Below are positions 50,238-64,000 of a stretch of 64,000 nt of DNA, piece after piece. The position numbers were made by a program, and so were the translations under genes. The notes beneath the pieces were generated by a model, which was not told the DNA's origin, searched no databases, and saw only the letters and a program-made list of their open reading frames with translations. How positions within the stretch are numbered: the first letter of the stretch is position 1; the number at the start of each line of letters is the position of its first letter. This DNA is from a virus, in IMG/VR virus record IMGVR_UViG_3300039106_000244, positions 32,001 through 96,000 of that record. One strand, 5' to 3'.

Positions 50238-51038
50238 TTATAATGACTTTGATAACTTAGCTAATTTCTTACGTAATTTAGATTCTTGTATAGCTTTTAT
50301 ATGTGCTGCTGACTTTGGTTTACGCATCTTTTGTTTTGTTTCTTCTGACTTTGGTTTACGCATCTTTTGTTTTGTTTCTTCTGACATAGCACCTTTACTA
50401 ACTCCTTTATTTGCTAAACTTAATTTAGCCTTATGTTCAGTAGATTTTGCAGTTGTTCCTTTACCACTACGATTAGCTGATATTTTAGTTGCAATAACTA
50501 ATTTTTCTTCTAAAGTTTTTTCCTTCCTATTAAGTTGTGCAATACTCATACGTTCTTTCTGTTCCGCTGTTCTTTTTTTGCCTATACAAGATGTACTACG
50601 TTTATCTATAGTTTCTTGCGAATGTACTCTTCCTTTTCCTGCTGTAGATATTTTAGCTTTCTGTTCCGCTGACATAGTGCGACCTGTAAGTCTAGCAGAA
50701 TGTATTTTACTAAATTCTTCTTTAAGATTGGCAAATACACGACTGGTAATTTTAGTAATATATCGTTCTTGTTGATGAGTGCGTGATACACGTCGCATAC
50801 CATTTAATGCATATATCATTTTTTCACGATTGCTACCTGTTGTTATTTTAATCAACAACCAGTGACATATAAAATGCTCGCGCCCTGACAAATGAACAAG
50901 ATTATTCTTGCTATCTTGTCCTCCGATTGATTTTGGTATGATGTGATGTTTTTCACTGTAAGAAAGCGGGGTTGATCTCAATTGCGCATTACTGACAATT
51001 GCATCATACCACCGCTTGTATTTGTTTTCGATAAACAT
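50238..51038 (-). mobile_element. HNH homing endonuclease with NUMOD3-like repeats
   Basis: EKHHIIPKSIGG..NLVHLSGREHFICHWLL; repeated SxE.K.K.S basic motifs; TAAATA box and SD upstream. Confidence 0.85.
50309..50385. repeat. Perfect 36-bp tandem duplication encoding SEETKQKMRKPK x2
   Basis: ctgactttggtttacgcatcttttgttttgtttctt repeated twice, plus ctgac. Confidence 0.9.
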
Positions 51039-54802: not shown

Positions 54803-56512
54803 ATGGCATGGAAAAAATACTTCAGAACCGCAAATACTGGTGGACAACTAAGTCCAATTAGTGGAATTAACAATGCATCTGACCCGAGTTATCGTAACTA
54901 TCAAAGCCAATTACCTGAGGTATACATCGGCCATCCAAATCGCACAGAACGTTATAATCAATATGAATCCATGGATATGGACAGTGAAGTTAATGCCGCC
55001 CTTGATATTATTGCAGAATTTTGCACACAACCAAACACAGAAAATGGTACAGGCTTTGACTTATATTTTAAAGAAGACCCAACAGATAACGAAATTAAAC
55101 TACTTAAAGATCAATTGCTACAATGGGTTAATTTAAATCAATTAAACAAACGTCTATTCAAACTTGTTCGTAATACATTAAAGTATGGCGACCAAGTATT
55201 TCTACGTGACCCGGAAACATTTAAATTATACTGGACAGAAATGGGCAGTGTAATCAAAGTTATTGTTAATGAAGCAGAAGGCAAAGAGCCAGAACAATAT
55301 GTAATTAAAAATCTTAATCTTAACTTTCAAAACTTAACTGCAACAGCATTAAGCTCAAGCGACACTTATACAAACCATCCACAACAAGGTGGGTCAGGCG
55401 GGTCGGGTTCGTATGTACAACCTAATGTACCATACAGTGGTGGTTCACGTTTTAGCCATGCACAAAACGAAGCAGTACTTGATGCAGAACATGTAGTGCA
55501 TATTAGTTTAACTGAAGGCTTAGATGTTAACTGGCCATTTGGTACAAGTATCCTTGAAAGTATCTTTAAGATCTTTAAACAAAAAGAATTATTAGAAGAT
55601 GCTATTATTATCTATCGTGTACAACGTGCTCCTGAACGTCGTATATTTAAAATCGATGTAGGTAATATGCCAACACATATGGCAATGGCCTTTGTGGATA
55701 GAATTAAAAATGAAGTACATCAACGTCGCATACCAACACAAACTGGTGGTGGACAAAATATGATGGATGCAACGTATAATCCACTATCAACAAACGAAGA
55801 CTTTTTCTTCCCAGTGGGTGCCGAAGGGCGTGGCTCAACAGTTGAAGCATTACCAGGCGGCAGCAACTTAGGTGAGATTACCGACTTACGTTTCTTTACT
55901 AACAAAATGTTTAGAGGTTTGCGTATTCCTAGTAGTTATTTGCCAACAGGCGCAGATGATAGCTCATCTACATTCAATGATGGACGTAGTACAACTGCGT
56001 TAATTCAAGAATGGCGCTTTAATCAATATTGTATGCGTTTACAAACTATGATAGTTGAAAAACTAGATACAGAGTTTAAAATGTTTATGCGATGGAGAGG
56101 CATTAACATCGATGGACAGTTATTTGAATTAAGACTAAACGAACCGCAAAACTTTGCAAAATATCGTCAAGCAGAAGTTGATGCGCAACGTATACAAGCA
56201 TTTACTCAACTTGAGCAAATTCCATATTTAAGTAAACGTTTCTTACTCACTCGTTACTTAGATTTAAGTGAAGAAGAAATGCAAGAAAATGATCAATTGT
56301 GGGCAGAAGAGCACAACGACACACCAGATACTACAGATACAGATGCAAGTCTACGTGCAGTTGGTGTAACGCCAGCTGGTATTGAAACAGACATAGGTAA
56401 TTTAGAAATGCCCGAATTAGGTGCAGAAACAGCCCCGGGCGTAGAACCAGGCGGATTACCTGCAACAGGAGCCGCACCAGCAGCACCAGCTGGCGCACCT
56501 CCAGGTTTATAA
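54803..56512 (+). CDS. gp20: Portal protein (T4 gp20)
   Basis: YESMDMDSEVNAALDII, LLEDAIIIYRVQRAPERRIFKIDVGNMP, EDFFFP..GRGS.VE.LPGG. Confidence 0.95.
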   Translation: MAWKKYFRTANTGGQLSPISGINNASDPSYRNYQSQLPEVYIGHPNRTERYNQYESMDMDSEVNAALDIIAEFCTQPNTENGTGFDLYFKEDPTDNEIKLLKDQLLQWVNLNQLNKRLFKLVRNTLKYGDQVFLRDPETFKLYWTEMGSVIKVIVNEAEGKEPEQYVIKNLNLNFQNLTATALSSSDTYTNHPQQGGSGGSGSYVQPNVPYSGGSRFSHAQNEAVLDAEHVVHISLTEGLDVNWPFGTSILESIFKIFKQKELLEDAIIIYRVQRAPERRIFKIDVGNMPTHMAMAFVDRIKNEVHQRRIPTQTGGGQNMMDATYNPLSTNEDFFFPVGAEGRGSTVEALPGGSNLGEITDLRFFTNKMFRGLRIPSSYLPTGADDSSSTFNDGRSTTALIQEWRFNQYCMRLQTMIVEKLDTEFKMFMRWRGINIDGQLFELRLNEPQNFAKYRQAEVDAQRIQAFTQLEQIPYLSKRFLLTRYLDLSEEEMQENDQLWAEEHNDTPDTTDTDASLRAVGVTPAGIETDIGNLEMPELGAETAPGVEPGGLPATGAAPAAPAGAPPGL

Positions 56513-57743: not shown

Positions 57744-58385
57744 ATGGCTTCATACTTAAAAGAAAACTTAACCTTTGACAATGCTAGAATGGAAATTCTA
57801 ACAGAAGAAAGTCATGACGGTAAAGGTAAGAATCTTTATATGAAAGGCATATTCATTCAAGGTGGCGTTAAAAACCACAACGAACGAGTGTATCCAGTAA
57901 ATGAAATTGAAAAAGCTGTATCAAATGTTAATGAACAAATCAAGGGTGGCTATAGCGTCTTAGGCGAAGTAGATCACCCAGATGATTTGAAAATTAACTT
58001 AGACCGTGTAAGTCATATGATTACAGATATGTGGATGGACGGTCCAAACGGCTTCGGTAAATTAAAGGTTCTCCCAACTCCAATGGGTAAGTTAGTAGAA
58101 ACAATGTTGGAAAGTGGAGTTAAACTTGGTGTTAGTTCTAGAGGTAGCGGCAACGTTAGCGAAAGTAACGGTCAAGTAAGTGACTTTGAAATAGTCACAG
58201 TAGATGTAGTTGCGCAACCTAGTGCTCCTAATGCATACCCAACAGCGATTTACGAAGGACTGATGAATATGCGTGGTGGTGCTAAGGCATTCGAAATTGC
58301 TCGTGAAGCAAGCGCAGATCAAAAGGTACAAAAGTATTTAAAAGAGCAAGTCACTCGCTTAATTAAAGATTTAAAATTAAAATAG
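57744..58385 (+). CDS. gp21: Prohead protease (T4 gp21)
   Basis: GIFIQG..KNHNERVYP, GEVDHP, GVSSRGSG, DVVAQPSAP.AY. Confidence 0.93.
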   Translation: MASYLKENLTFDNARMEILTEESHDGKGKNLYMKGIFIQGGVKNHNERVYPVNEIEKAVSNVNEQIKGGYSVLGEVDHPDDLKINLDRVSHMITDMWMDGPNGFGKLKVLPTPMGKLVETMLESGVKLGVSSRGSGNVSESNGQVSDFEIVTVDVVAQPSAPNAYPTAIYEGLMNMRGGAKAFEIAREASADQKVQKYLKEQVTRLIKDLKLK

Positions 58386-58394
58386 GAGATCAGT

Positions 58395-59525: not shown

Positions 59526-60701
59526 ATGACAACCCAACTATTAGAAGGCCGTTGGAACGAAACTAAGGATGCCCTGTTAGAAGGTCTACAAGGTTCAAAA
59601 CGTTCTACTATGGCTGTAATTTTAGAAAACACACGTAAGCATTTGACAGAAAACGCAACAGCTGGTGCTACAGCAGTAGGTAACGTAGCAACATTAAATC
59701 GCGTAATTCTTCCAGTGATTCGTCGTGTAATGCCAACAGTTATTGCAAATGAAATCGTTGGTGTACAACCAATGACAGGTCCAGTTGCACAAATCCATAC
59801 ATTACGTGTACGTTACGCTGATAGCGTTTCTGCAGGTACTTCTGGTGCTGATGCAGCAGTTGCTGGCGGTGAAGCTCTATCACCATTCAACATTGCAACA
59901 ACATACTCAGGTGCATCAACTGGTAAAGCTACTTCAACAGCTTCATTAGAAGGTGTTGCTGGTAACCGTATCAATGTACAAATCTTGAAACAAGTTGTTG
60001 AAGCTAAAACACGTAAACTAAGCGCACGTTGGACTTTTGAGGCAGCTCAAGATGCACAATCAATGCACGGTTTAGATGTTGAAGCAGAAATCATGGCAGC
60101 TTTAGCACAAGAAATTACTGTTGAAATCGATCAAGAAGTTTTAGCTTCATTAACATCATTAGCTTCAACAGCTTCTGACAACTACAACCAAGCTACTGTT
60201 TCTGGTACTGCTACATTCGTTGGTGACGAACACGCTGCTTTAGCTGTTTTAATCAACCGTTCTGCTAACAAAATTGCACAACGTACACGTCGTGGCGCTG
60301 GTAACTGGGCAGTTGTAAGTCCATCAGCTTTAACAGTGTTACAATCTGCAACTACTTCAGCTTTTGCTCGTAGTACAGAAGGTACATTTGAAGCTCCTAC
60401 AAACACTAAATTCGTTGGTACTTTAAACAGTGCTATGAAAGTTTATGTTAACACATACGCTTCAAACGACACAGTGTTAGTTGGTTACAAAGGTTCTTCA
60501 GAATCAGACGCAGCAGCGTTTTACTGCCCATACGTTCCATTAATGAGTTCTGGTGTTGTGTTAGATCCATCAACATTCGAACCAGTAGTGGGCTTTATGA
60601 CACGTTATGGTTATGTTGAATTAAGTAACACTGCATCATCTCTTGGTAATGCAGCTGATTACTTAGAAAAAATCACAGTAGCAAATCTATCATTCCAATA
60701 A
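59526..60701 (+). CDS. gp23: Major capsid protein (T4 gp23)
   Basis: RRVMP..IANEIVGVQPMTGP, AKTRKL.ARWT.EAAQD, TRRGAGN, FYCPYVPL, TRYG. Confidence 0.97.
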   Translation: MTTQLLEGRWNETKDALLEGLQGSKRSTMAVILENTRKHLTENATAGATAVGNVATLNRVILPVIRRVMPTVIANEIVGVQPMTGPVAQIHTLRVRYADSVSAGTSGADAAVAGGEALSPFNIATTYSGASTGKATSTASLEGVAGNRINVQILKQVVEAKTRKLSARWTFEAAQDAQSMHGLDVEAEIMAALAQEITVEIDQEVLASLTSLASTASDNYNQATVSGTATFVGDEHAALAVLINRSANKIAQRTRRGAGNWAVVSPSALTVLQSATTSAFARSTEGTFEAPTNTKFVGTLNSAMKVYVNTYASNDTVLVGYKGSSESDAAAFYCPYVPLMSSGVVLDPSTFEPVVGFMTRYGYVELSNTASSLGNAADYLEKITVANLSFQ

Positions 60702-60727: not shown

Positions 60728-60753
60728 AAAAAAGCCCCGCAAGGGGCTTTTTT
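60728..60753. terminator. Bidirectional intrinsic terminator
   Basis: AAAAAA GCCCC GCAA GGGGC TTTTTT between convergent genes. Confidence 0.9.
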
Positions 60754-60761
60754 GTTGACTG

Positions 60762-61337
60762 TCAATCTTCCTCATACCAATCATCATCGTCTTCGTCGTA
60801 ATAACGTTCATCTATGTAACTTCCTTTCTTATCATAGTCTTGATAGTATGCTTCGTTTGGTGTCATGATACGGAACTTACCCGCATACTTCATAGCCGCT
60901 ATAGTTACTTCGTATTTGTCTAATAAGTCGCATACAATAAAGCTACTGCCACATCCACCTACTATACGCTTAATAGGACTGTACTTAAATTCATCTGCTT
61001 GTAAAGCTCGATGAAATTCACCTCCGCCGTTGGCAATGATACGAGCATGTACTATTTTAGGGTGTGGTAAGTTACGGTCTAAAAATTTAAGTTTAGAGAT
61101 AGTAGCATTGTTATCCGAGTCAATAACAAGTTTACACTTTTTAAATTTTAGGGAACCTTTTGTGTGCGGATTGTCACTTGTCTCCTTTGTGCTCCAAGGA
61201 ATATTAGCATCCACGTGGTTGACATATAGAGTTACCCCATGTGCTTTGAGAACCCACATAGGAATTGTTGGGTCTTCGAGGTGCTTTTTGTTGAAATGAA
61301 AAACTAGGTCTTTTACTTGATATTCAATCTATAACAT
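60762..61337 (-). CDS. Hypothetical protein (191 codons) with in-frame TAG at codon 3: ML*IEYQVKDLVFHFNKKHLEDPTIPMWVLKAHG...
   Basis: SD TAAGGA, 7 nt, then ATG TTA TAG, in frame with the tracked ORF 60762-61259, whose ATG has no SD. Confidence 0.7.
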
Positions 61338-61368
61338 TTTAATTTCCTTATAAAAAAGTATTTAGTTA

Positions 61369-61442
61369 TGGTGCGTTAGGTGGGATTCAAACCCACTATC
61401 TTCGGCTTTAGAGACCGTTGCTAGTCGTATAGCTTCTAACGC
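61369..61442 (-). tRNA. Atypical tRNA with CUA anticodon (amber suppressor-type)
   Basis: GCGTTAG-AA-GCTA TACGAC TAGC-A-ACGGT CTCTAAA GCCGA-AGATA-GTGGG TTTGAAT CCCAC-CTAACGC-A-CCA: complete cloverleaf with encoded CCA. Confidence 0.85.
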
Positions 61443-61446
61443 AATA

Positions 61447-61480
61447 TATTTATATTAACATTAATAATACACAAAGTCAA
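61447..61480 (-). promoter_or_regulatory. Promoter(s) for the tRNA: late TATAAATA box and possible sigma70 TTGACT-N17-TAATAT
   Basis: TATAAATA at 61447-61454, 4 nt from the tRNA 5' end; TTGACT at 61475-61480. Confidence 0.6.
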
Positions 61481-63718: not shown

Positions 63719-64000
63719 ATGGCCGCTGTTAAAAGACTTAATACCTCGTATACGATTGATACCACCGATGTTTACATCACTGGTAACTTAACGGTACAAG
63801 GAGCACAAACTACAATTTCAACCACTAACATGGCAATCAAGGATAATATTGTTGTCCTGAATGAAGGTGAAGCAGGCGCCGGAGTAACATTAGGTACTGC
63901 TGGTATGCTAATTAATCGTGGGTCAGCAACTAACGTTGCTATACGATGGACTGAAACAAATGGTGGATCGTGGCAAATTTCAAATGCGGCAGGCACATTT
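63719..64000 (+). CDS. Structural protein, truncated by window end (MAAVKRLNTSYTIDTTDVYITGNLTVQG...)
   Basis: Hand translation, open to the edge; GNLTVQG..KDNIVVLN.GE.G.G motif; TAAATA box and SD upstream. Confidence 0.75.
   Translation, partial: MAAVKRLNTSYTIDTTDVYITGNLTVQGAQTTISTTNMAIKDNIVVLNEGEAGAGVTLGTAGMLINRGSATNVAIRWTETNGGSWQISNAAGTF

What the first reader, a model, noticed from the sequence alone, without database searches (positions are those of the whole stretch)
60762..61480. Amber-suppressor tRNA directly upstream of a gene with TAG at codon 3: a candidate tRNA-gated expression cassette
Seen: on the minus strand the order is TATAAATA late promoter, tRNA(CUA) at 61442-61369, 31 nt containing SD TAAGGA, then ATG TTA TAG ATT GAA TAT..., open to TGA at 60762. 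The 23 codons between the TAG and the tracked ATG read as protein (IEYQVKDLVFHFNKKHLEDPTIP), and that downstream ATG has no SD. Other genes, including one of 4149 codons, have no internal TAG, so the genome is not globally recoded. Inference: the protein is made only when the adjacent tRNA is intact and charged. That would be a local translational switch, for example a timing device, a sensor of tRNA cleavage or charging, or an early stage of stop-codon reassignment.
Basis: partly seen in the sequence, partly recalled or inferred. Interest (0 to 1): 0.92.

Follow-up and report, generated by a model that had tools for sequence, protein, structure and literature searches.

The report
Phage gene gated by own suppressor tRNA
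A giant lake phage that otherwise uses the normal genetic code keeps a UAG stop as the third codon of one conserved gene, right behind its own UAG-reading tRNA. About 150 related phage contigs keep the same design, so this protein is very probably made only when that tRNA overrides the stop.

Summary
On the minus strand lie a promoter-like site, a tRNA with anticodon CUA (61442-61369), a 31-nt spacer with a Shine-Dalgarno site, ATG TTA TAG (61337-61329), a 188-codon frame ending at TGA 60762, and a terminator hairpin.

- **Not an error.** 79 of 80, and 72 of 79, related IMG/VR loci keep an SD, an ATG, 0-10 codons and then TAG. TAA and TGA never fill this position.
- **The N-terminus is real.** The 23 codons after the TAG are among the most conserved in the protein and form a core strand of the predicted fold.
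- **The tRNA is linked.** A covarying CUA tRNA lies on the same strand in 75 of 80 records.
- **The code is standard.** TAG ends 14 of 100 large ORFs, including the 4149-codon gene.
- **Not re-initiation.** The codon after the TAG is often not a start codon (ACT, AAA, AAT).
- **The stop follows the anticodon.** In a neighbouring PTH2-like gene, Phosso pairs TAG with a CUA tRNA and Atu_ph07 pairs TGA with a UCA tRNA.

Best reading: suppressor-tRNA-dependent translation, inferred and not shown at the bench. The protein's function is unknown. This scan found the same family before on other DNA. I found no paper describing it.

The parts
61447..61480 (-). Promoter-like region. A sigma-70-like TTGACT-17-TAATAT site (61480-61452) overlaps TATAAATA (61454-61447), which ends 5 nt before the tRNA's first base.
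   Evidence: TATAAATA occurs 6 times in the window against 16 expected by chance. By my reading of the ORF table, 5 of the 6 lie just upstream of a gene start on the matching strand.
61369..61442 (-). tRNA with anticodon CUA (amber suppressor), encoded CCA and discriminator A73. It has an A27-A43 mismatch, no G18G19 and no C56.
   Evidence: Rfam RF00005 scores 49.7 bits and my own model R1 scores 75.4 bits. Across 39 distinct relatives, 17 of 20 pairs change on both sides while staying paired, and 93.8% of cells are paired against 78.4% in shuffles.
61338..61368 (-). 31-nt spacer with a Shine-Dalgarno site (AAGGA, 61349-61345), 7 nt before the ATG.
   Evidence: Related loci show AAGGA or AGGAG at the same distance before their ATG.
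61329..61337 (-). Leader ATG TTA followed by the gate codon TAG (61331-61329).
   Evidence: TAG is kept in 79 of 80 and 72 of 79 related loci, while the leader codons vary in sequence and number.
60762..61328 (-). 188-codon frame after the TAG plus the TGA stop. It has an N-domain (61065-61328, the 'FHFNKKH' domain), a ferredoxin-like C-domain (about 60822-61058) and an acidic tail (60765-60821).
   Evidence: No Pfam or PHROG family matches.
61257..61259 (-). Internal Met24 (MWVLK), the start that gene callers pick. It is not the true start.
   Evidence: the ORF listing gives 60762..61259. The protein Atlas holds the protein only from residue 24. At least 20 representative proteins start exactly at profile position 24. 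The upstream residues are conserved.
60728..60753 (.). GC-rich hairpin flanked by an A run and a T run. It is a likely two-way terminator shared with the convergent major head gene.
   Evidence: Folding gives -16 kcal/mol, z-score -3.5, with 0 of 200 shuffles folding as well. The consensus terminator scan did not flag it.

Best explanation
This is a self-contained amber-suppression cassette of a standard-code jumbo phage. One transcription unit (promoter, tRNA, gene, terminator) sits inverted in the head-gene module.

1. Ribosomes start at the ATG that has the Shine-Dalgarno site and meet UAG at codon 3.
2. Without the phage's CUA tRNA, release factor 1 ends translation after a dipeptide. The next ATG (Met24) has no ribosome-binding site and would yield a protein lacking a core strand.
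3. With the tRNA made, processed and charged, UAG is read as an amino acid and the full 191-residue protein is made.

Output therefore follows the activity of the phage's own suppressor tRNA relative to release factor 1. The gate is regulatory, not structural. Natural alleles exist with a plain ATG at the TAG position, and the leader varies freely.

**Shown here:** the anatomy, conservation of the TAG, linkage and covariation of the tRNA, coding constraint after the TAG, and the standard code elsewhere in the genome.

**Inferred:** readthrough itself, the amino acid inserted, and the purpose. I favour a delay or dose-matching device for a protein that works with tRNA-end enzymes. The protein's biochemical function is unknown.
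For: 1. **The TAG is conserved.** 79 of 80 loci of set 1 and 72 of 79 of set 2 have an ATG, 0-10 codons and then TAG before the conserved frame. TAA and TGA never fill this position, although TAA is the commonest stop in the genome (61 of 100 large ORFs).
2. **The leader drifts but the TAG does not.** Leaders include TTA, AAA, CAA, TCA, GCA, GCC and stretches of up to 8 codons.
3. **The frame after the TAG is coding.** Invariant residues start at residue 9. Pairwise differing codons split 10864 synonymous to 4274 nonsynonymous. Strand 2-13 of the model has pLDDT 92-94.
4. **The tRNA is linked.** A CUA tRNA lies in 70 of 80 loci, always on the gene's strand, 69 times upstream, and 21 times within 100 nt. 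Whole-record searches raise this to 75 of 80. Of 66 tRNAs that ARAGORN found in the 80 set-1 loci, 57 were CUA.
5. **The tRNA family is functional.** 17 of 20 pairs change on both sides while staying paired.
6. **The gene avoids TAG as its own stop.** Set 1: TAA 50, TGA 30, TAG 0 of 80. Set 2 gated alleles: TAA 54, TGA 16, TAG 1, and one cut off by a contig end, of 72.
7. **The context differs from real stops.** The base after the gate TAG is A in 79 of 79 (set 1) and A 61, G 10, C 1, T 0 of 72 (set 2). After genuine TAG stops it is mixed: A3 T5 C3 G3, and T4 C5 A4 G2.
8. **The stop type follows the anticodon in a linked gene.** Phosso's PTH2-like gene reads ATG AAG TAT TAG, and Phosso has a CUA tRNA. 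Atu_ph07's ortholog reads ATG ATT GGC GAA CAC TTT TGA, and its best match to model R1 is a UCA tRNA.
9. **A cultured phage repeats the design.** Rhizobium phage RHph_I1_18 has an unannotated homolog reading ATG AGT GAG TTC ATG TAG, with a tRNA annotated (cta) 15 nt after its end.
Against: - No experiment or RNA or protein data show readthrough.
- TAG is still the normal stop of 14 of 100 large ORFs in this genome, so an efficient suppressor would extend those proteins.
- The tRNA is odd. ARAGORN misses it, it lacks the G18G19 and C56 elbow pair, and it has an A27-A43 mismatch. Its charging is unproven and the amino acid is unknown.
- 8 of 159 loci lack the gate, so the gate is dispensable. 6 of those 8 still have the CUA tRNA in the locus, so allele and tRNA do not segregate cleanly.
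- 5 of 80 set-1 records and 15 of 72 gated set-2 loci show no CUA tRNA in the sequence I could search. Many of these are contig ends or fragments.
- The loci are metagenome contigs. Many are near-identical (57 distinct proteins among 80), and both sets come from one collection.
Confidence: 0.8

Rival explanations
1. ATG-TTA-TAG is a separate two-codon mini-ORF. Ribosomes terminate at TAG and re-initiate at the adjacent ATT, so the tRNA plays no part in making the protein.
For: In set 1 the codon after the TAG is ATT in 73 and ATC in 6 of 79 loci. It stays Ile even where four extra residues follow it (L013, L021). ATT is a rare bacterial start codon (recalled).
Against: - In the wider family the codon after the TAG is a non-start codon in at least 17 of 72 loci: AAA 5, ACT 4, AAT 4, AAG 2, AAC 1, CCC 1.
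- A mini-ORF could end in any stop, yet 151 of 151 gates are TAG.
- This reading does not explain the same-strand CUA tRNA, the TGA/UCA pairing in Atu_ph07, or why the gene avoids TAG as its own stop.
Confidence: 0.05
2. The TAG is a sequencing error or a nonsense mutation, or the gene simply starts at Met24 (MWVLK). The tRNA is an unrelated neighbour.
For: Gene callers start the protein at Met24. Met24 is invariant.
Against: - The TAG is kept in 151 of 159 loci.
- Contigs of four runs cover it with no difference listed.
- The 23 codons between the TAG and Met24 are under purifying selection and form a core strand and helix.
- No Shine-Dalgarno site precedes Met24.
Confidence: 0.03
3. The phage, or part of its genome, uses a TAG-to-sense code (code 15 type), and this gene is just one recoded gene among many.
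For: A CUA tRNA is the hallmark of TAG-recoded phages (abstract and section 7 of bioRxiv 10.1101/2021.08.26.457843; passages of PMC13037316).
Against: - Under table 11, 95% of the 117-kb record is coding, and TAG ends 14 of 100 large ORFs.
- No other gene with an ATG and a short leader before a TAG exists in the 117 kb or in a 93%-complete relative of 331,570 bp.
- TAGs deep inside genes were not screened exhaustively.
Confidence: 0.02
4. The tRNA's main job lies elsewhere, for example extending TAG-ended host or phage proteins or countering a tRNA-targeting host defence. The gated gene is then a passenger: it could keep selection on the tRNA or deal with the tRNA's side effects, and it would not act as a switch.
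For: - TAG-less alleles exist and often still keep the tRNA.
- The gated genes sit with tRNA-end enzymes: PTH2-like genes, and a kinase-plus-metallophosphoesterase gene in Phosso.
- The protease gene 57744-58385 ends in TAG and the next gene follows in frame.
Against: - This reading still needs the TAG to be read by the tRNA, so it differs only in purpose.
- In-frame continuation after TAG stops is not clearly enriched: G000 has TAG 3 of 14, TAA 5 of 61, TGA 1 of 25; G001 has TAG 1 of 15, TAA 22 of 203, TGA 4 of 84.
Confidence: 0.1

Closest known systems
Stop-codon-recoded phages with their own suppressor tRNAs (TAG or TGA read as sense in late, structural and lysis genes; Borges et al., bioRxiv 10.1101/2021.08.26.457843, abstract and section 7 read)
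   Same: A phage-encoded suppressor tRNA is needed to translate phage genes that carry in-frame stops. That work proposed that this regulates late expression, and it notes a standard-code phage that had acquired a suppressor tRNA.
   Different: - Here the genome keeps the standard code and uses TAG as a real stop (14 of 100 large ORFs).
- A single gene is gated, by a single codon.
- The codon sits 2-10 codons after the start, in a fixed purine context.
- The tRNA usually sits in cis on the same strand.
- The state is stable across a large family and is not a step towards recoding.
Orphan CUA suppressor tRNAs of standard-code jumbo phages (XacN1, PMC5852040; RsoM2USA, PMC8504454; passages read)
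   Same: Jumbo myoviruses with the standard code carry CUA tRNAs of unknown purpose.
   Different: The XacN1 authors read through the 18 amber stops at gene ends, found nothing, and stated that they could not identify target genes. Here the target is an amber codon at the start of a gene, which gene callers hide by choosing a later ATG. tblastn of this protein found no match in XacN1: only 4 phage records matched.
prfB (RF2) autoregulation through an early in-frame UGA (recalled, no paper read)
   Same: A stop codon early in a gene makes the output depend on the balance between termination and an alternative decoding event.
   Different: prfB uses a +1 frameshift and senses its own product.
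Synthetic amber-suppressor logic gates (supD tRNA plus T7 RNA polymerase gene with amber codons; recalled, no paper read)
   Same: One input makes a suppressor tRNA, the other makes an mRNA with amber codons, and output needs both.
   Different: That design is engineered. This would be a natural counterpart, with both parts in one transcription unit.
Lambda bar minigenes and peptidyl-tRNA hydrolase (recalled, no paper read)
   Same: An ATG-NNN-stop start looks like a minigene. In sister phages the gated gene is a PTH2-like hydrolase.
   Different: bar minigenes are not followed in frame by a conserved protein and are not tied to a suppressor tRNA. The link is only a lead.

Membership tests
tRNA (Rfam RF00005) | Cloverleaf scoring above the family's gathering score | tested here: met
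   49.7 bits against a gathering score of 29, covering model positions 1-71. ARAGORN found nothing.
tRNA (Rfam RF00005) | Stems supported by compensatory changes in relatives | tested here: met
   17 of 20 pairs change on both sides. 93.8% of cells are paired against 78.4% in shuffles and 34-43% when the partners are slid.
Amber suppressor tRNA | Anticodon CUA in a 7-nt loop with U33 and a purine at position 37 | tested here: met
   The loop is CUCUAAA. TCTAA is invariant in 39 relatives.
Amber suppressor tRNA | Reads UAG in vivo and is aminoacylated | not testable with these tools
   No RNA, charging or proteome data were available. The inserted amino acid is unknown.
tRNA-Pyl / pyrrolysine system | A pyrrolysyl-tRNA synthetase is present | tested here: not met
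   TIGR02367 (PylS_Cterm) found no match in G000 or in the 93%-complete relative G001. The host is unknown.
tRNA-Pyl / pyrrolysine system | tRNA-Pyl shape: 3-nt variable loop, 6-bp anticodon stem, one base between acceptor and D stems (features recalled) | tested here: not met
   The window tRNA has a 5-nt variable loop, at most 5 anticodon-stem pairs and two bases (AA) after the acceptor stem. Most relatives have a normal GG D-loop and a GTTCGA T-loop. ARAGORN's 'Pyl' label follows the anticodon only.
TAG-recoded (code 15) phage | Many genes interrupted by in-frame TAG, with coding density rescued by reading TAG as sense | tested here: not met
   Coding density is 95% under table 11. One gated gene lies in 117 kb and one in a 331-kb relative.
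TAG-recoded (code 15) phage | TAG abandoned as a terminator | tested here: not met
   TAG ends 14 of 100 large ORFs in G000 and 15 of 302 in G001.
TAG-recoded (code 15) phage | Phage-encoded CUA suppressor tRNA | tested here: met
   It is the only tRNA in the 117-kb record.
PTH2 peptidyl-tRNA hydrolase (PF01981), for the window's protein | Match to the family profile | tested here: not met
   No Pfam family matched at E up to 1. Profile-profile comparison of A2 against the PTH2-like neighbours (A3) gave probability 0.13%.
WW domain (PF00397), for residues about 23-46 | Match above the Pfam gathering score | tested here: not met
   The window's protein has no hit. 17 of 59 family members match below threshold (best E 0.01). 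The family profile does hit tandem-WW proteins. This is a resemblance only.
OB-fold nucleic-acid-binding domain, for the N-domain | Structural match to solved OB folds | tested here: inconclusive
   The best row has Z 3.6 (rmsd 3.5 over 67 residues). Several rows at Z 2.3-3.6 are OB-fold proteins such as PriB, RPA and Stn1.

The most novel reading that the evidence does not exclude
The cassette is a natural tRNA-operated translational gate. It belongs to a wider set of stop-gated genes: this 'FHFNKKH' protein and PTH2-like hydrolases that sit beside it in sister phages, next to an RNA-end kinase/phosphatase in Phosso. These would be the long-sought targets of the orphan suppressor tRNAs of standard-code large phages. 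The gate codon follows the phage's suppressor (TAG with CUA, TGA with UCA). It sits on the first gene of the unit. It lets the phage set the timing or dose of a tRNA-handling function by the ratio of charged suppressor tRNA to release factor. The early position (codons 2-10) and the purine after the stop would be tuned so that failed attempts cost only a short peptide and the tRNA beats the release factor.
Probability: 0.45. Interest if true: 0.88.

Novelty: new variant of a known kind. Interest (0 to 1): 0.8.

Why it matters
- **It names a target.** Suppressor tRNAs in standard-code jumbo phages have had no known targets. The XacN1 paper states this (PMC5852040, passage read).
- **It exposes an annotation error.** Gene callers start these genes at a later Met, or skip them altogether, as in RHph_I1_18. 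Such cases can be found by looking for an SD, an ATG, a few codons and then TAG in front of conserved sequence.
- **It would be a minimal natural switch.** One tRNA, one codon and one gene would form a natural counterpart of engineered amber-suppression gates.
- **It offers a natural part set.** The tRNA family has a weakened anticodon stem and comes with a preferred codon context, which may interest work on genetic-code expansion.
- **It can be tested.** Cultured phages carry the design: RHph_I1_18, Phosso, and Atu_ph07 with the TGA/UCA version.

Tried and rejected
**Function of the protein**
- No Pfam or PHROG family matched.
- A profile search of solved-structure sequences gave nothing below E 0.27.
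- The protein Atlas gave hits of 0.77-0.78, below the lead level.
- Foldseek against the PDB gave no match at E <= 0.001 for either model.
- VIA-align: the C-domain (residues 91-169) gave only generic ferredoxin-like rows, such as ACT and RRM domains, with Z up to 5.8. The N-domain gave Z up to 3.6. No PTH2 structure appeared among the rows listed, which excludes nothing.
- Complex prediction of a PTH2-like protein with the short FHFNKKH protein of the same operon gave 'no answer' (score 0.20 against a mark of 0.32). This is no evidence either way.

**Amino acid inserted**
- Similarity of the suppressor to co-resident tRNAs was inconclusive. It was closest to tRNA-Thr in 3 loci, at 0.69-0.75 identity.
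- Alignment with the TAG-less N-extended proteins of Phosso and Atu_ph07 puts Leu opposite the TAG, but that stretch is poorly conserved.
- TAG-less alleles put Met or nothing there.

**Programmed fusions at TAG stops**
- I considered this and dropped it. The numbers are small, and the excess seen in G000 is not seen in G001.

**Other gated genes**
- The second TAG candidate in G001 (305094, -) translates to low-complexity sequence and was rejected.
- PF01981 found no match in G000, G001 or G003 at E <= 0.01. Divergent PTH2-like genes score only 15 bits, so they could be missed.

**Expression**
- Only one RNA run held any sampled words (4%).

**Literature**
- Searches turned up no description of an N-terminal amber gate with a cis tRNA in a standard-code phage.
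The tRNA tables of the XacN1, RsoM2USA and jumbo-phage survey papers could not be checked.

**Co-occurrence for TAG-less alleles**
- The test is unclean. 6 of the 8 TAG-less loci keep the tRNA in the locus, and 7 of the 8 hold a TAG-gated PTH2-like gene just upstream.
Full report
**1. What is in the window**

Reading the minus strand from 61480 to 60720, the order is:

- a sigma-70-like site, TTGACT-17-TAATAT (61480-61452), overlapping TATAAATA (61454-61447);
- a 74-nt tRNA (61442-61369);
- a 31-nt spacer with AAGGA, 7 nt before the ATG at 61337;
- TTA, then TAG (61331-61329);
- 188 sense codons, then TGA (60764-60762);
- a GC-rich hairpin flanked by A and T runs (60753-60728; -16 kcal/mol, z-score -3.5).

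The Rfam tRNA model scores the tRNA at 49.7 bits against a gathering score of 29. Its anticodon loop is CUCUAAA. ARAGORN reports no tRNA in the window, which fits the lack of GG in the D-loop and of C56 in the T-loop. It is the only tRNA in the 117-kb virus record that holds the window. That record is a fragment estimated at 33% of a genome.

The neighbours are head genes: portal 54803-56512, prohead protease 57744-58385 and major head protein 59526-60701. The head protein's DNA resembles that of Rak2/PBECO4-like and Phosso-like jumbo phages.

TATAAATA, which I recall as the T4-type late promoter consensus, occurs 6 times in the window against 16 expected. By my reading of the ORF table, 5 of the 6 lie just upstream of a gene start on the right strand. 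A sigma-70-type promoter is equally readable at the same place.

**2. The code is standard**

Under table 11, 100 non-overlapping ORFs of 100 codons or more cover 95% of the record. Their stops are TAA 61, TGA 25 and TAG 14, and the 4149-codon gene ends in TAG.

A scan for a start codon plus up to 10 codons plus TAG, followed by a long open frame, finds only this gene as a convincing case in the 117 kb. The same holds in a 93%-complete relative of 331,570 bp. The one other candidate there translates to low-complexity sequence and was rejected.

**3. The TAG is conserved**

The search for related loci found 245 relatives in IMG/VR, and the best 80 were kept. All 80 align from the first residue after the TAG.

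- 79 of 80 read SD, ATG, 0-8 codons, TAG, then ATT or ATC.
- The leader codons differ freely, while the TAG does not.
- L007 has a plain ATG at the TAG position, behind GGAGG.

A second search used the N-domain of the Rhizobium phage homolog as query. It gave 79 further loci with both short (about 80 aa) and long (about 185 aa) forms. 72 of these are gated, all by TAG. Four contigs and L074 occur in both sets. Many contigs are near-identical: there are 57 distinct proteins in set 1.

As a control, the same scan with TAA or TGA as the gate codon finds gate-like ORFs in 4 and 1 of the 159 loci.

Contigs from four freshwater runs of four studies cover the TAG, and no difference is listed there. 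19 rows were not shown, and run X1 may be the source sample.

**4. The true N-terminus lies upstream of Met24**

- In 58 aligned proteins, residues V9 F10 H11 F12 N13 K14 H16 L17 D19 P23 M24 W25 are invariant.
- Over the 24 codons after the TAG, summed entropy by codon position is 7.5, 4.2 and 22.6. Pairwise differing codons in the first 23 split 10864 synonymous to 4274 nonsynonymous.
- AlphaFold2 places residues 2-13 as a long core strand. Mean pLDDT is 84 for the whole protein and 91.7 for the N-domain alone.
- Public protein sets hold the protein only from Met24. At least 20 of the 150 listed family representatives start exactly at profile position 24. Gene callers have therefore been misled.

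**5. The tRNA travels with the gene**

ARAGORN finds a CUA tRNA in 57 of the 80 set-1 loci. Of the 66 tRNAs it finds in those loci, 57 are CUA.

I built covariance model R1 from 39 distinct sequences. It finds a CUA tRNA in 70 of 80 loci, always on the gene's strand.

| Position relative to the gene | Loci |
|---|---|
| Upstream, under 100 nt | 21 |
| Upstream, 100-399 nt | 22 |
| Upstream, 400-1299 nt | 17 |
| Upstream, 1300 nt or more | 9 |
| Downstream | 1 |

Whole-record searches add five more loci: L058, L061 and L065 (3.7 kb upstream), L073 (3.1 kb upstream) and L052 (8 kb downstream). That gives 75 of 80. The other five are an 11-kb fragment with no match and four contig ends with under 180 nt of upstream sequence.

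In set 2, 57 of 72 gated loci hold a CUA tRNA. 6 of the 15 without have under 1,900 nt of upstream sequence.

The tRNA family is functional by covariation: 17 of 20 pairs change on both sides while staying paired. G1-C72, C2-G71 and the encoded CCA are invariant among the 39, as is A73. Some set-2 tRNAs have G73 instead.

Only 6 loci turned up in one genome each of 185,579 prokaryote species. All are MAG contigs. 3 are gated and 5 hold a CUA tRNA. The profile search found 155 representative clusters among 1.84 billion proteins. The family is small and, by these searches, belongs to phages.

**6. Suppression, not re-initiation**

The tidy TAG-ATT of set 1 invites the idea of a mini-ORF followed by an ATT start. 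The wider family speaks against this.

- After the TAG come ATT 37, ATC 6, GTA 5, AAA 5, ACT 4, GTT 4, AAT 4, ATA 2, AAG 2, GTC 1, AAC 1 and CCC 1. What is conserved is a purine at the next base: A 61, G 10, C 1, T 0.
- Genuine TAG terminators in G000 and G001 show no such bias: A3 T5 C3 G3, and T4 C5 A4 G2. A purine after UAG favours suppression in E. coli (recalled).
- A mini-ORF would not need TAG in 151 of 151 cases.
- The gene avoids TAG as its own stop: 0 of 80, and 1 of 72.
- The stop type follows the anticodon in a linked gene. In Phosso, the annotated 'peptidyl tRNA hydrolase' really begins ATG AAG TAT TAG GTT, in frame with its annotated start. The PTH2 profile match starts upstream of that annotated start, and Phosso carries a CUA tRNA.
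- In Atu_ph07, the ortholog begins ATG ATT GGC GAA CAC TTT TGA ATT. The phage's best match to model R1 is a UCA tRNA lying between two annotated CDSs.

**7. The gate is regulatory**

TAG-less alleles exist.

- L007 and L172 have Met at the TAG position.
- Many representative proteins start MVEIACKD, MIELACKE or MTVELACRD.
- In L171, L177, L182, L193, L194 and L195, the FHFNKKH gene starts at a plain ATG. It directly follows a PTH2-like gene (PF01981, E 7.8e-7) that begins ATG-NNN-TAG and sits behind the CUA tRNA.
- L007 and L172 likewise have a gated, weakly PTH2-like ORF about 650 nt upstream (PF01981 at 15 bits, below the cut-off).

So the gate tends to sit on the first gene of the unit. The FHFNKKH domain also keeps company with PTH2-like genes in three distant lineages. 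In Phosso the operon goes on into a kinase-plus-metallophosphoesterase protein (AAA_33 + Metallophos). I read that pairing as an RNA-end-healing type of enzyme; this is an inference.

**8. The protein**

The protein has three parts:

- an all-beta N-domain of about 88 residues, with no solved relative (best Z 3.6, with weak OB-like rows);
- a ferredoxin-like C-domain (Z up to 5.8 to ACT and RRM-type domains);
- an acidic tail.

Residues around PMWVLK..G.T.YVNH resemble a WW domain below threshold. 17 of 59 members match PF00397 (best E 0.01), and the family profile hits tandem-WW proteins. No function can be assigned. A role with tRNA or translation is guilt by association only.

**9. The tRNA's oddities**

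In 32 of 39 family members the 31-39 pair at the bottom of the anticodon stem is not a standard pair, and in 9 of 39 the top 27-43 pair is not. The window's tRNA has A27-A43.

Passages of PMC13092985 report that unpinning the top pair of the anticodon stem raised readthrough by CUA-anticodon tRNAs in E. coli. The weak stem may therefore be an adaptation. This is inference.

The window's closest relatives (L005, L006, L011, L012, L017, L018, L014, L021) have lost both G18G19 and C56. This explains why ARAGORN misses them.

That is not borne out. No PylS gene is present, and the variable loop, anticodon stem and acceptor-D junction are not Pyl-like.

**10. Comparison with what is known, and verdict**

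Phage suppressor tRNAs that unlock in-frame stops are known from recoded gut phages, where a role in timing late genes has been proposed. What differs here:

- the genome uses the standard code;
- a single gene is gated by a single early codon;
- the codon context is fixed;
- the tRNA is linked in cis;
- the design is stable across a family.

For standard-code jumbo phages, the literature I could read says the targets are unknown or only guesses at them. Five full-text searches found no description of this design. Supplements were closed.

This scan has noted the same family before in other genomes. I re-tested those claims here and did not rely on them.

I rate the observation as confirmed and the gating reading as well supported but unproven at the bench (0.8). 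I class it as a new variant of a known kind.

Noticed in passing
L004 432-452 and L097 1501-1575 (Agrobacterium phage Atu_ph07, MF403008.1 430713-430787): The PTH2-like gene has an in-frame TGA at codon 7 upstream of its annotated start. A tRNA with anticodon UCA lies between two annotated CDSs of the record and is not listed as a feature there. This is the opal twin of the amber design.
   Followed up: partly
L002 402-413 (Sinorhizobium phage Phosso, PV764938.1): The annotated 'peptidyl tRNA hydrolase' starts too late. The frame runs from ATG AAG TAT TAG, 54 codons upstream, and the PTH2 profile match begins before the annotated Met. The phage has a CUA tRNA 270 kb away.
   Followed up: partly
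L003 1473-1719 (Rhizobium phage RHph_I1_18, MN988519.1): An unannotated gene (ATG AGT GAG TTC ATG TAG, then the FHFNK domain) ends 11 nt before a tRNA annotated as Pyl(cta). This phage is cultured and could be used to test the gate.
   Followed up: partly
window 61369-61442 and alignment A1: The suppressor tRNA family has a weakened anticodon stem: pair 31-39 is not standard in 32 of 39 and pair 27-43 in 9 of 39. The window's own clade has also lost both G18G19 and C56, the elbow pair.
   Followed up: partly
window 57744-58394 and 63719-64303: The prohead protease gene ends in TAG, and the next gene's ATG follows in the same frame three codons later. The same holds for the ORF that starts at 63719. 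An active amber suppressor would make some fusion protein. No enrichment was seen in the relative G001.
   Followed up: partly
window 61190-61262 (residues about 23-46 of the protein): The motif PMWVLK..G.T.YVNH....PW resembles a WW domain below Pfam's threshold. The family profile picks up tandem-WW proteins of 588-1213 aa.
   Followed up: partly
L166/L167 2283 and L170 2190: Homing-endonuclease-like ORFs (one with a GIY-YIG-like motif, one with an HNH-like motif) begin with their own ATG GCA TAG start next to the gated gene. It looks as if the insertion copied the gate.
   Followed up: no
window, six sites (17963, 52187, 52214, 54771, 61447, 61937): TATAAATA is depleted (6 sites against 16 expected). 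5 of the 6 lie just upstream of gene starts, as expected of a T4-type late promoter that is selected against elsewhere.
   Followed up: partly
window 50238-51038 (-): A homing-endonuclease gene (phrog_655, E 4e-40) lies near the baseplate-hub and head genes.
   Followed up: no
L159 2705-2781 and L160 1539-1615: A tRNA-like gene next to a gated allele appears to have an 8-nt anticodon loop that contains CCUA. ARAGORN did not call it a suppressor.
   Followed up: no
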